Assembly (NCBI GenBank): GCA_030615855.1
Contig: JAUWYL010000001.1
Coordinates: 203,008-252,441 of the forward strand
Source: a bacterium
GTDB taxonomy: Bacteria > UBP18 > UBA7526
DNA length: 49,434 nt
Direction of reading: 5' to 3'
Part shown: positions 6,219-44,707 of the stretch, one piece after another
Layout of the letters: each line of letters starts with the position of its first letter
How positions within the stretch are numbered: the stretch's first letter is position 1
Notes under the pieces: model-generated
The model's database searches: none
Told to the model about the DNA's origin: nothing
Seen by the model: only the letters and a program-made list of their open reading frames with translations
Position numbers and translations under genes: made by a program

Positions 6219-6566
6219 ATGACGCGGAGGAGAGCTCAGCGGGCAGGAAGACTTATTCAGGAAGAGATTTCAAAGATCATTCAGAGGGAATTAAAGGATC
6301 CACGGATTGGATTTGTTACTATTACTGGTGTAGATGTTACTGATGATCTCCGCTATGCCAAGGTATTCATCACTGTTTTAAAAAGAGAGGAAAGGGAGAG
6401 GACTCTGGAAGGCCTGGAGCATGCCAAGGGATTTATTCGTAGGGAGATCGGACAGAGAATAAAAATGAAGTTCACTCCAGAGATTGAGTTTAGATTCGAT
6501 GAAACTATAGAGCGTGGAGCACACATAGAGGAAGTAATAAGAAAGATTAAGGAGAAGGAGAAGTGA
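6219..6566 (+). CDS. rbfA: Ribosome-binding factor A
   Basis: KDPRIGFVTITGVDVTDDLRYAKVF, TPEIEFRFD. Confidence 0.97.
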   Translation: MTRRRAQRAGRLIQEEISKIIQRELKDPRIGFVTITGVDVTDDLRYAKVFITVLKREERERTLEGLEHAKGFIRREIGQRIKMKFTPEIEFRFDETIERGAHIEEVIRKIKEKEK

Positions 6567-6567
6567 A

Positions 6568-6676
6568 TCCCGTTAGATGCTGGTCTTTTAATGAAGTGGA
6601 AATAAATGATACATTTAGGATCGCTATTAAAGATATTAGAAAAAGCTATATAACAATATTTGGGAGTCTAACGGGA
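6568..6676. mobile_element. Miniature TIR element (MITE-like), copy 1
   Basis: tcccgttaga ... tctaacggga perfect 10-bp IR, flanked by TGAA direct repeats at 6564-6567 and 6677-6680. Confidence 0.8.
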
Positions 6677-7653
6677 TGAAGGAACTAAAAAAGATTGTCG
6701 AGGTTATCAGAGAGAATAAAAGTTTCTTTATTACTTCTCACATCAGGCCAGATGGGGATTCCATCGGCTCTCAACTTGCCCTGAAGAGGATACTGGAAAG
6801 GTTAGGAAAGGAAGTAATCATCACCAATCATGATCCGGCCCCTAAAATCTACGATTTTCTTCCCGGAAAAGAGAGCATCAAGCAAGAACTACCTAAGAAT
6901 AGAGAGTTCGATGTGGCCTTTATTCTGGATAGCCCAGAGCTCTCTCGTCTGGTGAGCACCGCAGAGATAATCGAGAAAGCAAAGGTCATCGTAAATATCG
7001 ATCACCATCTGGGGAATGAAAAGTTTGGAAAGTATAACTATGTTGATACTGAGGCTTCTGCCGTGGGAGAAGAGATATATGAACTGACAAGAGTAATGGG
7101 GTTTGAGATAGATAGGGAGATTGCCTTATGCCTCTATGTGGGCATCTTTACAGATACCGGTTCCTTCCGGCAGTCAAATACTACCCCTCGTACCCATGAG
7201 ATCGTGGCCCACCTCATGAAGATAGGAGATTTAAAGCCTGCCCAGATCACCCATCAGATATACGGGACCCAGCTTCCTTCTGCCATAAAGTTATTGAGCA
7301 TGACTTTGGATACCTTGGAGAGGAGCGGAGACGGCAGGATAGCTTGGATGACCATTACCGACGAGATGTTCAAAGAGACCGGAACCACCAAGGCGGAGAC
7401 CGAGAACTTCATCAACTATGTTCGTTCTGTGAAAGGAAGCGAGGTGGCCATTCTATTCACTGAGCTTGCTAAGGATGAGGTAAAGGTCAGTTTCCGCTCC
7501 AAGTCTAGTGCCGACGTTAATAGTATAGCCAAAATATTTGGAGGTGGAGGACATCTTCGCGCTTCTGCCTGCACTATAAAGGGAGATTTGGAGGAGGCAA
7601 AGAGGAAGGTGCTGGTTGAGGTAGAGAAGAGACTAAAGAAGGTTTACGGTTGA
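6676..7653 (+). CDS. nrnA: DHH/DHHA1 bifunctional oligoribonuclease / PAP phosphatase
   Basis: HIRPDGDSIGS, IDHH, TDTGSF, GGGGH motifs; typical rbfA-nrnA-truB context. Confidence 0.93.
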   Translation: MKELKKIVEVIRENKSFFITSHIRPDGDSIGSQLALKRILERLGKEVIITNHDPAPKIYDFLPGKESIKQELPKNREFDVAFILDSPELSRLVSTAEIIEKAKVIVNIDHHLGNEKFGKYNYVDTEASAVGEEIYELTRVMGFEIDREIALCLYVGIFTDTGSFRQSNTTPRTHEIVAHLMKIGDLKPAQITHQIYGTQLPSAIKLLSMTLDTLERSGDGRIAWMTITDEMFKETGTTKAETENFINYVRSVKGSEVAILFTELAKDEVKVSFRSKSSADVNSIAKIFGGGGHLRASACTIKGDLEEAKRKVLVEVEKRLKKVYG

Positions 7654-28624: not shown

Positions 28625-29322
28625 AGACTATGGTCATCATCCCCACCTATAATGAGAGGGAGAACATCGGCCCCTTGCTTGATGAAATTATGAACCTTAA
28701 AGAAAATATCGAGGCTCTGGTGGTAGATGATAACTCTCCGGATGGCACTTGGAGAATAGTAGGAAATTATTCTAAGAAAAACCCTAGAGTTCATCTCTTA
28801 CGGAGAACCTCTGAGAGAGGACGGGGCCTGGCAGGAATAGCAGGATTTAAGTATGCTTTGGAGAATAAAGCAGATTATGTCATTGAGATGGATGGTGATC
28901 TTTCCCACAATCCAAAGTATATCCCAGAGTTCTTGAAAAAGATTGAGGATTGCGATGTAGTCATCGGCTCTCGTCTTCTTCCCGGTGGAGGGGAGGTGGG
29001 AAGAGGGTTTTTAAGGCGTCTAATCACCAGGCTGGCTGCCATCTACGTTAGGATTTTATTAGGATTCAAGGTTACAGATCCTACCTCCGGCTACCGTTGT
29101 TATCGGGGAGAAGTCCTAAGGGCTATAGATATTAAAAGCCTAAAGGCCAGGGATCCTTTCCTCCTCTCTGAGATGCTCCTCAGGTGCTATAAGAAAAGCT
29201 ATAGAATTAAAGAAATCCCCATCCTCTTTCAAAATCGGAAATCCGGTGCTTCTAAGATCGGCTGGAAAATCTTGATAACCTATCTCTTCAAGGTCCTAAA
29301 GTTGAGAGTTAGAGGGAAGTGA
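28621..29322 (+). CDS. Polyprenol monophosphate glycosyltransferase (GT2, Dpm1-like)
   Basis: IIPTYNERENI, VDDNSPDGT, EMDGDLSH, DPTSGYR. Confidence 0.9.
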   Translation: MKTMVIIPTYNERENIGPLLDEIMNLKENIEALVVDDNSPDGTWRIVGNYSKKNPRVHLLRRTSERGRGLAGIAGFKYALENKADYVIEMDGDLSHNPKYIPEFLKKIEDCDVVIGSRLLPGGGEVGRGFLRRLITRLAAIYVRILLGFKVTDPTSGYRCYRGEVLRAIDIKSLKARDPFLLSEMLLRCYKKSYRIKEIPILFQNRKSGASKIGWKILITYLFKVLKLRVRGK

Positions 29323-30494
29323 GTATCCCGATCTTAATGTATCATCATGTAAACCCCGTTAGAAGTCCTCGTTGCAAACGAGGCATCCGTCCCCTTCGGG
29401 GTCGGATTACTTCTAACGGGGTAAATGAACTCCCAGATAGTTTTACTATTTCTCCAGATGATTTCCAGAGTCAAATGGAGTACTTAGCAAAAAAAAATTA
29501 CCAGACCCTCTTTCTGGATGAGTTAATTAATTCTTTAAAAGAGAGAAAAGAGAAGAGAAAGGTAGCCCTTACCTTTGATGATGGTTATCTTGATAACTGG
29601 GTCTATGCCTACCCCATCCTGAAGAAGTATAATCTAAGAGCAACCGTCTTTGTCATTACCTCTCGCATTAAAGAGAAGCCTATCTCCTATCGCCCTAACT
29701 TAGAAAATCTCTGGAAGAGGAAAGTTAAGAAAGAAGGGCTTCCCAGGATTTCTAATCACTATCAGAGTAATCTAAGATGTGTCAGGAATCTTGAAGGTTC
29801 AGATGATCATATTACCTGGGAAGAAGCGAAGAAGATGTCTCGAAGCGGTCTGATAGATATCCAGTCCCACAGTTATTTACACAGCTACTGTTATGTAAGT
29901 GATAAGATAGTCGATTATTATCGAGGACATAAGTGGCGCACGGGCTGGCTTACAGATGGAGATACAAGATTAGGCATCCCGATATATGAGGATAAGCCAG
30001 CCCTTGCTGGGCAAAGATATTTTGATGATCAGGACTTAAGAAATAGACTGGCAGAATACGTTTCCCAAAGAGGGGAAGGAAAATTCTTTGAAAAGGAGGA
30101 TTGGAAGAAGGAATTGGATGGGATAGTAGATGATTATCGGGTGCAAAATGAACTAAAAGATAATTATGAAACTTTAAAAGAGAGAGGGAAGCGAGTCAAA
30201 AGCGAGTTATTACTATCTAAAAATATTGTCGAAGAAAAACTAAATAAAGAATGTAACTTCATCGCCTGGCCAGGAGGGGCATACGATAGTTATTTAGTTA
30301 AGTGGGCTAGGGAGTGTGGCTATCAAGGAGCAGTAACTACCCAGCCAGGAGCGAATACTTCTAATACCAACCCTATGTATCTCAAGAGGTTTGAGATTAA
30401 GAGAAGGGATCTTGGCTGGTTTAAGAAAAGGCTTTTCATTTACTCCCATAATTTCACGGCCCGATTTTACCCCAAGATAAAGGGGTTATTTTAA
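29319..30494 (+). CDS. Polysaccharide deacetylase (CE4) carrying a 24-aa in-frame insertion
   Basis: IPILMYHHV, LTFDDGYLDN, IQSHSYLH, AWPGG motifs. Confidence 0.9.
   Translation: MSIPILMYHHVNPVRSPRCKRGIRPLRGRITSNGVNELPDSFTISPDDFQSQMEYLAKKNYQTLFLDELINSLKERKEKRKVALTFDDGYLDNWVYAYPILKKYNLRATVFVITSRIKEKPISYRPNLENLWKRKVKKEGLPRISNHYQSNLRCVRNLEGSDDHITWEEAKKMSRSGLIDIQSHSYLHSYCYVSDKIVDYYRGHKWRTGWLTDGDTRLGIPIYEDKPALAGQRYFDDQDLRNRLAEYVSQRGEGKFFEKEDWKKELDGIVDDYRVQNELKDNYETLKERGKRVKSELLLSKNIVEEKLNKECNFIAWPGGAYDSYLVKWARECGYQGAVTTQPGANTSNTNPMYLKRFEIKRRDLGWFKKRLFIYSHNFTARFYPKIKGLF
29354..29421. mobile_element. Miniature TIR element, copy inserted in frame in the deacetylase
   Basis: ccccgttagaagt ... acttctaacgggg perfect 13-bp IR; TAAA direct repeats at 29350-29353 and 29422-29425; 68+4 = 72 nt. 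Confidence 0.9.
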
Positions 30495-34476: not shown

Positions 34477-34612
34477 TCGGTGAACGGTGATCGGTGAACG
34501 GTGATCGGTGAATAGAATAGCTATCAAGCAATTAAGCCATTAAGAATAAGGATCAAGCATTCAGTATCTGTGATCTGTGTTAATCTGTAATAAATCTGTG
34601 CGAATCTGTGTC
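34459..34612 (+). repeat. Composite repeat: 8 GTGAWCN heptamers, ATYAAGCA octamers, AATCTGTG units
   Basis: gtgatcg gtgaaca gtaatcg gtgaacg gtgatcg gtgaacg gtgatcg gtgaata (34459-34514), then atcaagca attaagcc attaagaa and atctgtg repeats. Confidence 0.85.
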
Positions 34613-34625
34613 TAAGGAGAGAAGC

Positions 34626-43297: not shown

Positions 43298-43845
43298 CAG
43301 TCTTTATAGATCGGGATGGAACGATTATAGAGGAATTGGAATATTTAAAGGATCTAGAGAGGATTAGACTTATACCCCATTCAGCAGATGCTATTAGATC
43401 ATTAAATGAAAGAGAGATATTGGCCATCATTGTTTCCAACCAAGCAGGAGTAGCACGAGGCTATTTCTTAGAAGAGACTGTTAGGAAGATAAATGAGAGG
43501 TTAGAAGAACTCCTAAGTAAAGAAGGAGCACACTTAGATGCAATCTATTATTGTCCACATCATCCAGAGTTTGGTTCACCTGAGTATAGGAAGGACTGTA
43601 ACTGCCGAAAACCAAAACCAGGCATGTTATGGAAATCAGCTAAAAAGTTTCATTTAAACCTGAAGGATTGTTATGTAATCGGGGATAGAGCAGATGATAT
43701 TCGATTGGCGCAAAATGGGGGCGCAAAAGGGATATTGGTATTAACCGGATATGGCCAGAAGGCCAAAGAAGAGATAAAGCCAGATCATATGGCTAAAGAC
43801 TTATATCAAGCAGTTAGATGGATATTAGAAGAGTGTGGACAGTGA
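43285..43845 (+). CDS. gmhB: D-glycero-D-manno-heptose 1,7-bisphosphate phosphatase
   Basis: FIDRDGT, VSNQAGVARG, YCPHHP...CNCRKPKPGM, IGDRADD. Confidence 0.94.
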   Translation: MSRIAVFIDRDGTIIEELEYLKDLERIRLIPHSADAIRSLNEREILAIIVSNQAGVARGYFLEETVRKINERLEELLSKEGAHLDAIYYCPHHPEFGSPEYRKDCNCRKPKPGMLWKSAKKFHLNLKDCYVIGDRADDIRLAQNGGAKGILVLTGYGQKAKEEIKPDHMAKDLYQAVRWILEECGQ

Positions 43846-43905
43846 GCAGATGGACAGGTGGGAGAATGAGCAAGTAAAAAAGGAGGAAAAAGGGGAAGTT
43901 ATGAA

Positions 43906-44017
43906 TCCCGTTAGACCTTTCTAAAGTCTAACGGGATTAAATCGGAAAATTTTGGAATATGCCAAGTAAGTTATCTTTTTATACTCTTTACTCGTAAACT
44001 AAGGAGGTCTAACGGGA
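43906..44017. mobile_element. Miniature TIR element, copy upstream of the DUF4254 N-half gene
   Basis: tcccgttagacc ... ggtctaacggga perfect 12-bp IR; TGAA direct repeats at 43902-43905 and 44018-44021; extra right end at 43926-43936. Confidence 0.85.
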
Positions 44018-44223
44018 TGAAAAAGACATTTGCTCAACTGGTGAATGAGTTAACAAAGGTAAATATTGCATTATGGCATGAGGAAGATAAGGCGAGAAGT
44101 GAAGATGATAAAGTTGTGGCTCAGGCGAAGAGAGAAATTGATAGATTGAATCAGAGAAGGAACGATCTCATTGAGGCTATTGATGAATATGCTATTACCT
44201 TGAGCAAGGGGAGAAATAAATAA
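44017..44223 (+). CDS. DUF4254-like protein, N-terminal half
   Basis: LWHEEDKAR...[19 protein letters not shown] resembles the DUF4254 N-region (recognised from memory). Confidence 0.7.
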
Positions 44224-44486
44224 TGGCGGAGACTATTGGGAGTTTAGTGGATAAAATAAGCATCTTTGAACAGAAGTGCTTCCATATGAAGGAAGAGACA
44301 AAGAGAAAGGATGTTTCTAAAAAGCATGTCGGAGAATGTAAAAAGAAACTTTTGATATTAAAGAGGCAGCGCAACGACTTAGTAGAAGAACTTGATGAAC
44401 TATTCATGGATATTCTATCTGGAAAGAAAAAGCTAAAGGTCTATAAGCAATTCAAGATGTATAATCTACCAGAGTATATAAAATAA
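44223..44486 (+). CDS. DUF4254-like protein, C-terminal half
   Basis: ETIGSLVDKISI..K.FHM..E...C..KL..L..Q..DL...G.K..KVYKQFKMYN; TAATG coupling. Confidence 0.72.
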   Translation: MAETIGSLVDKISIFEQKCFHMKEETKRKDVSKKHVGECKKKLLILKRQRNDLVEELDELFMDILSGKKKLKVYKQFKMYNLPEYIK

Positions 44487-44490
44487 AGAA

Positions 44491-44696
44491 GTTTACAGTA
44501 ACCAGTTTACAGTTTACAGCAAAAAAGTAAAAGAGCATCAGATAATCAGATTATCAGATGGAAAAGGTCAGTTATCAGAAGGTCAGATTGAAAACATTGA
44601 ATCTGGTATTCTGAATTCTCATTCTGAGATTCTGATGTTCTGATATACTGATATTCTATGGTTTTGCTGGTTACTGTTCGCTGGTTACTGGTTACT
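44491..44696. repeat. Family B palindromic element
   Basis: Inverted near-copy of 18821-19016 with one extra octamer. Confidence 0.9.
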
Positions 44697-44707
44697 AAGG
44701 TCAGATT

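What the first reader, a model, noticed from the sequence alone, without database searches (positions are those of the whole stretch)
43881..44021. TIR element inserted into an ATG start codon rebuilds the ATG and brings a new Shine-Dalgarno
Seen: the inferred empty site is ...aggggaagtt-ATGAAAAAGACA, a start codon with a purine-rich RBS upstream. After insertion the element's terminal A plus the duplicated TGAA recreates ATG AA, and AAGGAGG lies at 44001-44007 inside the element. A second right end (gtctaacggga-ttaa, 43926-43940) forms a minimal hairpin with the left end, suggesting nested or repeated events. Inference: the element swaps translation-initiation regions.
Basis: partly seen in the sequence, partly recalled or inferred. 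Interest (0 to 1): 0.7.

Follow-up and report, generated by a model that had tools for sequence, protein, structure and literature searches.

The report
Start-codon-capturing GIY-YIG mini-element remnant
A 112-bp inverted-repeat insert sits exactly on a gene's start codon, rebuilds that codon and supplies a new ribosome-binding site; it is a gene-less copy of a tiny, widespread and apparently undescribed mobile element whose only gene is a 91-residue nuclease.

Summary
A 112-bp element (43906-44017) with perfect inverted ends and a TGAA duplication lies on the ATG of a DUF4254 gene. Its last base rebuilds the ATG, and GGAGG lies 9 nt upstream. Both relatives in which this junction is assembled lack the element and keep the same start.

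The element is more than an ordinary MITE. Five full-length members seen in other phyla (four of 268 bp, one slightly longer) are filled by one ORF for a 91-92-aa single-domain GIY-YIG nuclease. That ORF starts at the captured host ATG (MNPVRP...). It ends GGLTG-TGA, overlapping the rebuilt host start, and its Gly-Gly codons form the new Shine-Dalgarno. The window copy is a decayed ~112-nt derivative. Paralogues of it sit on the start codons of two unrelated genes.

Start-codon association is extreme:
- 8 of 8 complete TGAR-flanked copies in this genome start ORFs of 68-710 aa.
- 63 of 63 complete copies from many phyla have A or G before the left duplication.
- About 15% is expected if only non-disruptive sites survived.

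Nuclease-driven mobility and active targeting are inferred, not shown. I found no publication describing this behaviour. The closest is the Ssn/NTS system. Earlier notes of this scan describe the same family.

The parts
43880..43898 (+). Host's original purine-rich ribosome-binding tract (AAGGAGG 43880-43886, GGGGAAG 43892-43898). It now serves only the relic leader ORF.
   Evidence: Sequence. Across 63 reconstructed empty sites G is enriched at about -12 to -9.
43901..43924 (+). Captured original start codon ATG (43901-43903) plus a 7-codon relic ORF, MNPVRPF-stop. This is the remnant of the nuclease N-terminus MNPVRP.
   Evidence: Translation. Of the 120 best homologue clusters, 83 begin MNPVRP.
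43902..43905 (+). Left copy of the 4-bp target-site duplication TGAA.
43906..44017 (+). 112-bp non-autonomous element. The nuclease frame is kept (length 1 mod 3) but broken by three stops: [36 protein letters not shown].
   Evidence: Absent at the orthologous site in G002 and G004.
43905..43918 (+). Left terminal inverted repeat (ATCCCGTTAGACCT).
   Evidence: pair I2: 14 nt, 100% complementary to 44005-44018.
43923..43938 (+). Internal copy of the right end. With 43904-43919 it forms a mini-hairpin, which the predicted mRNA fold uses in place of the long-range pairing of the two ends.
   Evidence: pair I1. (minimum free energy -43.1 kcal/mol, z -2.7). Shared by paralogues.
44001..44007 (+). 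Element-borne Shine-Dalgarno AAGGAGG. The GGAGG at 44003-44007 lies 9 nt before the ATG and corresponds to the Gly-Gly codons GGA GGT of the nuclease C-terminus.
44005..44018 (+). Right terminal inverted repeat (AGGTCTAACGGGAT).
44017..44021 (+). Rebuilt start ATG (terminal A of the element plus TG of the duplication) and the right TGAA duplication (44018-44021). TGA at 44018-44020 is the relic stop of the nuclease frame.
44017..44223 (+). Host gene: 68-aa N-terminal half of DUF4254.
   Evidence: Pfam PF14063, E 1.3e-15, residues 7-62 matching profile positions 2-59. The start is conserved in G002 and G004.
44223..44486 (+). 87-aa C-terminal half of DUF4254, the next ORF.
   Evidence: Pfam PF14063, E 7.4e-21, profile positions 73-144.
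6564..6680 (+). Second copy of the family: element 6568-6676 (109 bp) between TGAA duplications. The left TGA is the stop of the upstream ORF. The original GTG (6563) now opens a 38-codon leader ORF whose stop overlaps the rebuilt ATG (6676) of a DHH/DHHA1 gene.
   Evidence: Absent at the orthologous junction in G001, G002, G003 and G005.
29354..29421 (+). Related 68-bp hairpin element without a Shine-Dalgarno (ends CCCCGTTAGAAG / CTTCTAACGGGG, duplication TAAA). It is inserted in frame (72 nt, 24 codons) near the N-terminus of a polysaccharide deacetylase ORF.
   Evidence: Absent in all 5 relatives. A contig of run X4 bridges the site without it.

Best explanation
The 112-bp insert is a non-autonomous, decayed copy of a miniature mobile element. 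The full version is about 268 bp and consists of one gene for a 91-aa single-domain GIY-YIG (Slx1/UPF0213-like) nuclease. The first and last codons of that gene are themselves the terminal inverted repeats.

Shown:
- The element inserted at T-G-A-A of the host start codon ATGAA and duplicated TGAA.
- The host's own ribosome-binding site and ATG now open the element's frame (MNPVRP...). In full copies this frame is the nuclease; here it is a 7-codon relic.
- The element's last base plus the duplicated TG recreates the host ATG.
- The element's GGA GGT codons place GGAGG 9 nt upstream of that ATG.
- The nuclease stop TGA overlaps the new start (ATGA).

The host gene therefore becomes the second cistron and should stay expressed, which would make the insertion nearly harmless.

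Inferred:
- The GIY-YIG nuclease, acting on the hairpin or cruciform formed by the two ends, drives excision and insertion with a 4-nt staggered cut at TGAR.
- The family prefers translation start sites. Selection then keeps copies that either donate a Shine-Dalgarno and start codon or read through in frame.
- The window copy was mobilised in trans as a ~112-nt unit.
- Translation of the DUF4254 gene now depends on the element-borne ribosome-binding site.
For: Insertion:
- Inverted ends and a 4-bp duplication are present.
- Orthologous sites are empty in 2 of 2 relatives with the junction assembled.
- The two other window copies are absent in 4 of 4 and 5 of 5 relatives with the locus.

Coding origin:
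- Four 268-bp members carry the same ends and translate from the captured ATG to GGLTG-TGA as 91-aa proteins. Their MAGs are labelled Pirellulales, Planctomycetaceae, Desulfobacterales and Omnitrophica.
- All 4 match Pfam GIY-YIG at E 7e-16 to 4e-13.
- One queried (L087) matches the solved UPF0213 proteins 1zg2 (E 3.5e-9) and 1ywl (E 3.5e-5).
- A fifth full copy sits on the start of an ORF beginning VKHAGFSHLHVHTQYSLLDG, in the MAG that gave 16 of the 80 loci, all of them short copies.
- L064 (100 bp) is visibly an internal deletion of an L087-like copy.
- 1235 protein clusters match at E<=1e-5. Of the best 120, 72 are 91 aa, 83 start MNPVRP and 81 end GGLTG.
- Y12, Y23, G25, R33, H37 and E57 are invariant in 28 aligned sequences. 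These were 4 loci plus 24 of the 120 clusters that I picked at intervals.

Start-codon association:
- Own genome: all 8 complete TGAR-flanked elements start ORFs of 68-710 aa.
- Own genome: 10 of 11 exact right ends followed by TG open at least 60 codons.
- Relatives: 58 right ends against 0 controls, and 22 of the 30 fetched start ORFs of at least 60 codons.
- Other phyla: 80 of 81 right ends are open for at least 60 codons or to the locus end (one could be followed for only 46 codons). Of these, 63 have a left end with the same duplication.
- In those 63 the base before the left duplication is A (55) or G (8). In 51 the start is the first one after an in-frame stop.
- Base rates in this genome: 26.8% of RTGAR sites are open for at least 60 codons. 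Start codons are 545 of 3,683 non-disruptive TGAR sites, or 14.8%.

Trans-mobilisation:
- The ~112-nt subfamily, with its mini-hairpin, sits on the start codons of three unrelated genes. These are DUF4254, an aconitase-C-domain gene and argininosuccinate lyase.
Against: - No intact nuclease gene with these particular ends was found in this genome (93.6% complete) or its 5 relatives. Their GIY-YIG genes carry other ends.
- Nuclease activity, excision and insertion have never been assayed. GIY-YIG enzymes are hydrolytic nucleases and are not known to join DNA.
- The cross-phylum sample was drawn with a pattern that required GGAGG and RTGAR at the right end. Only the left-junction result is independent of that choice.
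- Gene models are crude ORF calls.
- The Shine-Dalgarno-less hairpin subfamily does not sit at starts: 8 of 30 relatives' ends do not, and several are read through in frame. Selection on outcome is therefore clearly at work, and it could explain more of the pattern than I allow.
- Contigs of two other runs (X2, and X5 from another study) carry the filled site. No empty allele was seen.
Confidence: 0.8

Rival explanations
1. The element is the same, but it does not target start codons. It inserts at any TGAR, and purifying selection removes every copy except those that leave genes working. That would also favour copies that rebuild a start and donate a Shine-Dalgarno.
For: Outcome-dependent sorting is visible. 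Copies without a Shine-Dalgarno have length+4 divisible by 3 and are read through in frame. Examples are C2:5509 (71 bp), C26:17751 (134 bp) and window 29354-29421 (68 bp). Copies with a Shine-Dalgarno sit at starts. The flanks show no conserved bases beyond a generic Shine-Dalgarno tract and RTGAR.
Against: If all non-disruptive TGAR sites were equally tolerated, about 14.8% would be start codons in this genome: 545 starts, 252 stops and 2,886 sites outside ORFs of at least 100 codons. Observed are 8 of 8 here and 63 of 63 elsewhere. Stop-codon and intergenic sites should tolerate these elements, yet they are almost unused by the Shine-Dalgarno-bearing subfamily.
Confidence: 0.3
2. It is an ordinary MITE moved by a conventional (for example DDE) transposase encoded elsewhere. 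The GIY-YIG ORF in the long copies is a passenger.
For: Inverted ends plus a 4-bp duplication are the hallmark of DDE elements. No cognate nuclease gene with these ends is present in this genome.
Against: All 5 full-length copies examined are filled end to end by the nuclease ORF. The inverted ends are its first and last codons, which leaves no room for another gene. No pair of ends 400-4000 bp apart with a matching duplication exists in this genome. Other end-sequence families in this phylum also enclose GIY-YIG genes.
Confidence: 0.08
3. The nuclease is a free-standing homing endonuclease. The unit spreads by double-strand-break repair or gene conversion between alleles, not by transposition.
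For: GIY-YIG is a classic homing-endonuclease fold. There are weak NCBIfam matches to group I intron endonucleases, below cut-off.
Against: Copies sit in front of many unrelated genes with no shared flanks. They have inverted ends and target duplications. The protein is a bare 91-aa catalytic domain without the DNA-binding domain of Seg or I-TevI type enzymes.
Confidence: 0.05
4. It is not mobile DNA but a vertically inherited leader, a short upstream ORF plus hairpin, that regulates translation of the downstream gene.
For: The mRNA is predicted to fold, with z -2.7. In 25 of 63 elements the leader ORF stays open to a stop that overlaps the new start.
Against: It is absent from orthologous sites in the same genus. 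The same sequence lies in front of unrelated genes and in many phyla. It carries target duplications.
Confidence: 0.02

Closest known systems
Ssn nucleases with NTS/SRM hairpin repeats (Chenal et al., Nat Commun 2025, PMC11893778; outline and passages read)
   Same: A single-domain GIY-YIG protein of about 94 aa whose gene is flanked on both sides by its own hairpin-forming repeats, with hundreds of gene-less repeat copies in the genome. The authors note that NTS-ssnA-NTS looks like an insertion sequence.
   Different: The published SRM consensus matches 0 of 63 elements here, and this genome has 6 matches against 2-6 in shuffles. In the passages I read the paper reports no target duplication, no start-codon insertion and no rebuilt start or Shine-Dalgarno ('start codon' occurs 0 times). 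Here the repeats are part of the ORF itself. Whether the protein falls in CDD clade cd10448 could not be tested.
Bacterial insertion sequences and their MITEs (for example Correia, RUP, ERIC; recalled, plus Delihas 2011, PMC3184786, seen in a search listing only)
   Same: Terminal inverted repeats, a short target duplication, many dispersed short copies, co-transcription with neighbouring genes, and occasional donation of expression signals.
   Different: The autonomous form carries no DDE, serine, tyrosine or HUH transposase, only a 91-aa GIY-YIG nuclease. The element has no start codon of its own and borrows the host's. Insertion is confined to start codons.
Prokaryotic Slx1-like / UPF0213 minimal GIY-YIG proteins (BH0048 1zg2, EF2693 1ywl; Dunin-Horkawicz et al. 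2006, PMC1564403, passages read)
   Same: The same minimal stand-alone GIY-YIG domain (E 3.5e-9 to 1zg2). Eukaryotic Slx1 cuts branched or structured DNA, which would fit action on a hairpin or cruciform.
   Different: That paper treats the family as repair enzymes inherited mostly vertically. Here the gene is bounded by inverted repeats and duplications and sits at unrelated gene starts in many phyla.
Free-standing GIY-YIG homing endonucleases of phage T4 (Seg proteins; search listings only: Edgell et al. 2010, PMC2988022, and the SegB paper PMC2330249)
   Same: A selfish GIY-YIG nuclease gene lodged between or at the edge of host genes.
   Different: Seg proteins carry a DNA-binding domain and move by homing with co-conversion of flanks. 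They have no inverted ends, no duplication and no start-codon rebuilding.
IS200/IS605 and REP/RAYT systems (recalled; cited in the Ssn discussion)
   Same: Hairpin-recognising enzymes, short palindromic gene-less derivatives, and sequence-specific tetranucleotide targets.
   Different: Those use HUH Y1 transposases with covalent intermediates, each end has its own subterminal hairpin, and they make no duplication.

Membership tests
Transposable element with terminal inverted repeats (IS/MITE in the broad sense) | Terminal inverted repeats | tested here: met
   14-nt perfect arms 43905-43918 / 44005-44018.
Transposable element with terminal inverted repeats (IS/MITE in the broad sense) | Target-site duplication flanking the element | tested here: met
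   TGAA at 43902-43905 and 44018-44021. The same 4-bp rule holds in 12 complete own-genome copies and in 63 of 81 ends from other phyla.
Transposable element with terminal inverted repeats (IS/MITE in the broad sense) | Empty site in related genomes, and dispersed copies at unrelated loci | tested here: met
   Empty in G002 and G004. There are 49 exact 8-mer ends in the genome. Paralogues sit at three unrelated genes.
Known IS families (DDE, serine, tyrosine or HUH transposases) | The autonomous copy encodes a transposase of a described class | tested here: not met
   Full-length copies hold one ORF only; the four 268-bp copies scanned match Pfam GIY-YIG and no transposase family (the fifth copy was not scanned). 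No long-range end pairs exist in the genome.
Ssn / SRM system (Chenal 2025) | Single-domain GIY-YIG protein of about 90-100 aa flanked by its repeats | tested here: met
   91 aa, GIY-YIG domain at residues 9-75, inverted repeats at both ends. This applies to full-length relatives, not to the window copy.
Ssn / SRM system (Chenal 2025) | Repeats fit the published SRM consensus | tested here: not met
   0 of 63 elements and neither window copy match. The genome has 6 matches against 2-6 in 5 shuffles.
Ssn / SRM system (Chenal 2025) | Protein belongs to CDD cd10448, and shows site-specific single-stranded DNA cleavage | not testable with these tools
   No CDD library or Ssn reference sequence was on hand. 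Activity needs an assay.
Free-standing GIY-YIG homing endonucleases | Nuclease domain joined to a DNA-binding domain, with one conserved homing site | tested here: not met
   Bare 91-aa domain. Dozens of unrelated host genes.
UPF0213 / prokaryotic Slx1-like GIY-YIG | Sequence similarity to the solved members and conserved catalytic Tyr, Tyr, Arg and Glu | tested here: met
   1zg2 at E 3.5e-9 and 1ywl at E 3.5e-5. Y12, Y23, G25, R33, H37 and E57 are invariant in 28 sequences. Assigning these residues to catalysis is recalled knowledge.

The most novel reading that the evidence does not exclude
This family is a new class of transposon and the smallest self-contained one known. It is about 268 bp with no promoter, ribosome-binding site or start codon of its own. 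Its sole product, a 91-aa GIY-YIG nuclease, both mobilises it and directs it to translation start codons, where it borrows the host's initiation signals and hands rebuilt ones back. It has spread in this way across many bacterial phyla, leaving behind gene-less copies such as the one in this window.
Probability: 0.4. Interest if true: 0.92.

Novelty: categorically new. Interest (0 to 1): 0.8.

Why it matters
If the nuclease really moves the element, it adds a new enzyme class to DNA transposition and sets a new lower size limit for an autonomous mobile element.

The start-codon capture is a neat answer to how a parasite can live in a streamlined genome. The element is expressed from the host's signals, and it neutralises its own insertion by returning a start codon, a Shine-Dalgarno and translational coupling.

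It also has practical consequences:
- It rewrites the initiation regions of many genes, including one whose product begins like the DNA polymerase III alpha subunit (resemblance recalled, not tested).
- It creates short upstream ORFs and N-terminal extensions that gene callers will mis-annotate.
- It explains part of the many tiny proteins annotated as 'GIY-YIG nuclease family protein' or 'excinuclease ABC subunit C' in genomes of uncultured bacteria.
- A small protein that recognises start sites or hairpins could become a molecular tool, as has been proposed for the Ssn nucleases.

Tried and rejected
- **attC site.** The ends contain GTTAGAC / GTCTAAC, which resemble integron core sites. I rejected this by inspection, because the order of the two motifs is the reverse of an attC site on either strand.
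- **IS1380 or piggyBac-like element.** Considered because of the CCC ends and 4-bp duplication. I dropped it once the coding content was seen.
- **Long-range end pairs.** None 400-4000 bp apart with a matching duplication in this genome.
- **Promoter inside the element.** 0 sigma-70-like sites in 43700-44200.
- **SRM consensus.** No match.
- **16S 3' end (anti-Shine-Dalgarno).** Not found in the assembly.
- **Viral contigs.** Only 1 match to the 19-nt right-end pattern.
- **Sequencing runs.** No RNA holder is listed. Contigs of X2-X5 showed no empty allele at 43906-44017. The short 'skip 77-81' joints there rest on only 20-21 letters and come from other copies of the repeat.
- **Earlier notes of this scan.** Searches by words for a MITE at start codons and by the element's sequence found nothing. 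A search for 'GIY-YIG inverted repeat' found many.
- **Literature.** Seven full-text searches found no description of a GIY-YIG element with inverted ends and duplications, or of start-codon insertion. The four end-sequence strings occur only in unrelated papers. Supplements of the Ssn paper were not read and may list related repeats.
- **Not run.** Structure prediction, complex prediction and the 1.84-billion-protein search, because the fold and family were already clear from sequence.

Full report
**The observation**

The left side reads ...AAGGGGAAGTT ATG AA | TCCCGTTAGACC, and the right side reads AAGGAGGTCTAACGGGA | TGAAAAAGACA.

- The element spans 43906-44017 (112 bp).
- TGAA is duplicated at 43902-43905 and 44018-44021.
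- The arms 43905-43918 and 44005-44018 are 14 nt and perfectly complementary.
- An internal copy of the right end (43926-43936) pairs with the left end.
- The ATG at 44017 opens a 68-aa ORF. This ORF is the N-terminal half of DUF4254, with the Pfam match starting at profile position 2.

The 11-mer end is far over-represented. It occurs 5 times in the window against 0.49 expected. It occurs 12 times exactly in the 1.375-Mb genome against 0 for the reversed control.

**It is an insertion**

Among 40 relatives searched with the locus, the junction between the phosphatase gene and DUF4254 is assembled in two. G002 is in the same genus and G004 in the same family. Both lack the element and keep the start...GATAAAG ATG AAG AAG ACA TTT and ...TTAGC GTG AAG ACA TTT.

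The window holds two more members of the superfamily.

- **Copy at 6568-6676.** It lies between TGAA duplications. The left TGA is the stop of the upstream ORF, and the rebuilt ATG starts a DHH/DHHA1 gene. It is missing at the orthologous junction in G001, G002, G003 and G005, where the protein starts at the same residue.
- **Copy at 29354-29421.** This is a 68-bp hairpin copy with a TAAA duplication. It is missing in all five relatives, and a contig of another sample bridges the site without it.

**What the element is**

About 17 are expected by chance (my arithmetic). By my tally of the titles of the 80 fetched loci, the MAGs are labelled:

| Submitter's label | Loci |
|---|---|
| Omnitrophota | 34 |
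| Planctomycetota groups | 15 |
| Deltaproteobacteria / Desulfobacterales | 12 |
| Nitrospirae / Thermodesulfovibrionia | 5 |
| Elusimicrobia | 3 |
| Saccharibacteria | 3 |
| Clostridia | 1 |
| Stahlbacteria | 1 |
| Unclassified | 6 |

These are the submitters' labels. Of the 81 right ends, 63 have a left end with the same 4-bp duplication, and element lengths run from 47 to 268 bp.

The four 268-bp members are coding. Read from the host's original ATG they give MNPVRP...GGLTG-stop, 91 aa.

- All four match Pfam GIY-YIG at E 7e-16 to 4e-13, over residues 9-75.
- One of them (L087) was compared with solved structures; its nearest are the minimal UPF0213 / Slx1-like proteins 1zg2 and 1ywl.
- The inverted ends are therefore the first codons (N-P-V-R-P) and last codons (G-G-L-T-G) of the gene.
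- GGAGG is the Gly-Gly codon pair.
- The stop TGA overlaps the rebuilt host start (RTGA).

A protein search found 1235 clusters at E<=1e-5. Among the best 120, 72 are exactly 91 aa, 83 begin MNPVRP and 81 end GGLTG. The positions of the GIY-YIG motif are invariant in a 28-sequence alignment.

Short elements are deletion derivatives. L064 (100 bp) matches the 5' part of the L087 gene and then jumps to its 3' end.

The window element read in the captured frame is [36 protein letters not shown]. The frame is kept, but three stops break it. The copy at 6568 is still open for 38 codons and ends GSLTG-stop on the new ATG.

The MAG that gave 16 of the 80 loci, all of them short copies, also holds an intact full copy. 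That copy sits on the start of an ORF beginning VKHAGFSHLHVHTQYSLLDG. Its resemblance to the N-terminus of the DNA polymerase III alpha subunit is recalled, not tested.

**Start-codon association**

Own genome. The census used only the 8-mer core, so it is blind to flanks.

- There are 12 complete elements. Eight have TGAA or TGAG duplications, and all eight start ORFs of 68-710 aa. Three of them also sit on ATGA stop/start overlaps.
- The four with TAAA/TTTA duplications do not sit at starts.
- Of 11 exact right ends followed by TG, 10 open at least 60 codons. The base rate over all RTGAR sites is 26.8%, giving p about 1.6e-5.

Relatives. There are 58 right ends against 0 controls. Of the 30 fetched, 22 start ORFs of at least 60 codons. 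The 8 misses belong to hairpin subfamilies without a Shine-Dalgarno.

Other phyla.

- 80 of 81 right ends are open for at least 60 codons or to the locus end.
- In all 63 complete elements the base before the left duplication is A (55) or G (8). This result is independent of the search pattern.
- All 63 reconstructed empty sites have an in-frame stop upstream, and in 51 the codon is the first start after it.
- The only conserved flank features are a G-rich tract at about -12 to -9 and RTGAR.

Expectation. If insertion hit TGAR at random and every disruptive copy were lost, about 14.8% of survivors should be at starts in this genome. So there is either real targeting or a selective filter stronger than 'do not break genes'.

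One such filter exists for full copies. They have no start codon of their own, so only copies on a start codon are translated.

That filter does not apply to gene-less copies. Yet the ~112-nt subfamily of the finding, mini-hairpin included, sits on the start codons of three unrelated genes:
- DUF4254 here;
- an aconitase-C-domain gene in G000 and G002;
- argininosuccinate lyase in G003 and G004.

**Selection is also visible**

Copies without a Shine-Dalgarno are tolerated when length+4 is a multiple of 3 and no stop intervenes, so that they are read through.

- The 68-bp copy at 29354 adds 24 codons near the N-terminus of a polysaccharide deacetylase.
- Others span ORFs of 145-783 codons.
- Among the 63 Shine-Dalgarno-bearing elements, 33 keep the nuclease frame (length 1 mod 3). 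In 25 the leader ORF stays open to the overlapping stop.

**How the window copy probably works**

- The host's old ribosome-binding tract and ATG now translate a 7-codon relic.
- The DUF4254 gene starts at the rebuilt ATG, served by the element's GGAGG 9 nt upstream.
- In the predicted mRNA fold the left end pairs with the internal copy rather than with the right end. This would leave the new initiation region less occluded, which is an inference.
- No promoter-like site lies in the element.

**Comparison with what is known**

The nearest published system is Ssn/NTS (PMC11893778; passages read). There, 94-aa single-domain GIY-YIG nucleases cut single-stranded DNA next to their hairpin repeats. 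The genes are flanked by those repeats, and the authors remark on the likeness to an insertion sequence.

- The published SRM consensus does not fit these ends (0 of 63).
- The passages I read mention no duplications or start codons.
- The 2006 survey of the GIY-YIG superfamily treats the minimal Slx1-like proteins as repair enzymes inherited vertically (PMC1564403).
- Seven full-text searches found no description of this behaviour.

Earlier notes of this scan independently describe the same kind of element in Patescibacteria. They are unpublished AI notes and count as leads only. One of them pointed me to the Ssn paper. I had already reached the GIY-YIG link from the 268-bp copies.

**Limits**

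- No intact nuclease with these ends is present in this genome or its five relatives. Their GIY-YIG genes have other ends.
- This GTDB phylum holds only six genomes.
- Nuclease activity and mobility are untested.
- Contigs of two other runs carry the filled site, and no empty allele was seen.
- Gene models are ORF-based.

Noticed in passing
window 29354-29421: A 68-bp palindromic element of the same superfamily (ends CCCCGTTAGAAG / CTTCTAACGGGG, duplication TAAA) is inserted in frame. It adds 24 codons near the N-terminus of a polysaccharide deacetylase ORF (29319-30494). It is absent in all five relatives and resembles the in-frame palindromic elements of Rickettsia (that resemblance is recalled).
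   Followed up: yes
window 44017-44486: DUF4254 is encoded as two consecutive ORFs of 68 and 87 aa (profile positions 2-59 and 73-144), joined at TAATG. The split is also present in G002 and G004, so it looks like a conserved two-gene arrangement and not a recent break. G004 has about 150 extra bases between the halves, not examined.
   Followed up: partly
window 44487-44707 and 34560-34615: Intergenic stretches are built of degenerate 7-8-nt tandem units (GTTTACA, TCAGATDA, TTCTGAN, GGTTACT; ATCTGTG upstream of a start). Similar arrays precede many genes in the genome (flanks). Contigs of other samples pile up here at depths up to about 600, with variable joints. Their function is unexplained.
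   Followed up: no
G000:C35:39241-39489 (-), outside the window: An intact small GIY-YIG gene lies between a different pair of inverted ends (ACCCCGCACCTTTT / AAAAGGTGCGGGGT). The left flank is ...ATGA, and two right ends in tandem are followed by GTG AAG AAG..., the start of a signal-peptide-like ORF. The nuclease here uses its own internal ATG.
   Followed up: partly
G000:C30:56584-56805 (-), outside the window: A third end family (CCCCGCCCCCATTT / AAATGGGGGCGGGG) encloses an 89-aa GIY-YIG gene with duplication TCAA. On the other strand, TTGA is the first part of a TTGACA-17 nt-TATACT promoter-like site.
   Followed up: no
L208 (G004:C106), about positions 167-194: The argininosuccinate-lyase copy of the ~112-nt element carries a nested 28-bp mini-palindrome of another family (CCCCGTTGATAAC...CTACGGGG) flanked by CAAG. 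Tandem or nested insertions into rebuilt starts also occur in L066, L074, L082, L123 and L128.
   Followed up: partly
G000:C1:5068 and C18:21602, C44:67723, C35:76951: Solo right ends (GGAGGTCTAACG[GA]G[AG] then TGAA) start ORFs of 76-237 aa, with no recognisable left end within 420 bp. They may be older insertions whose left half has decayed.
   Followed up: no
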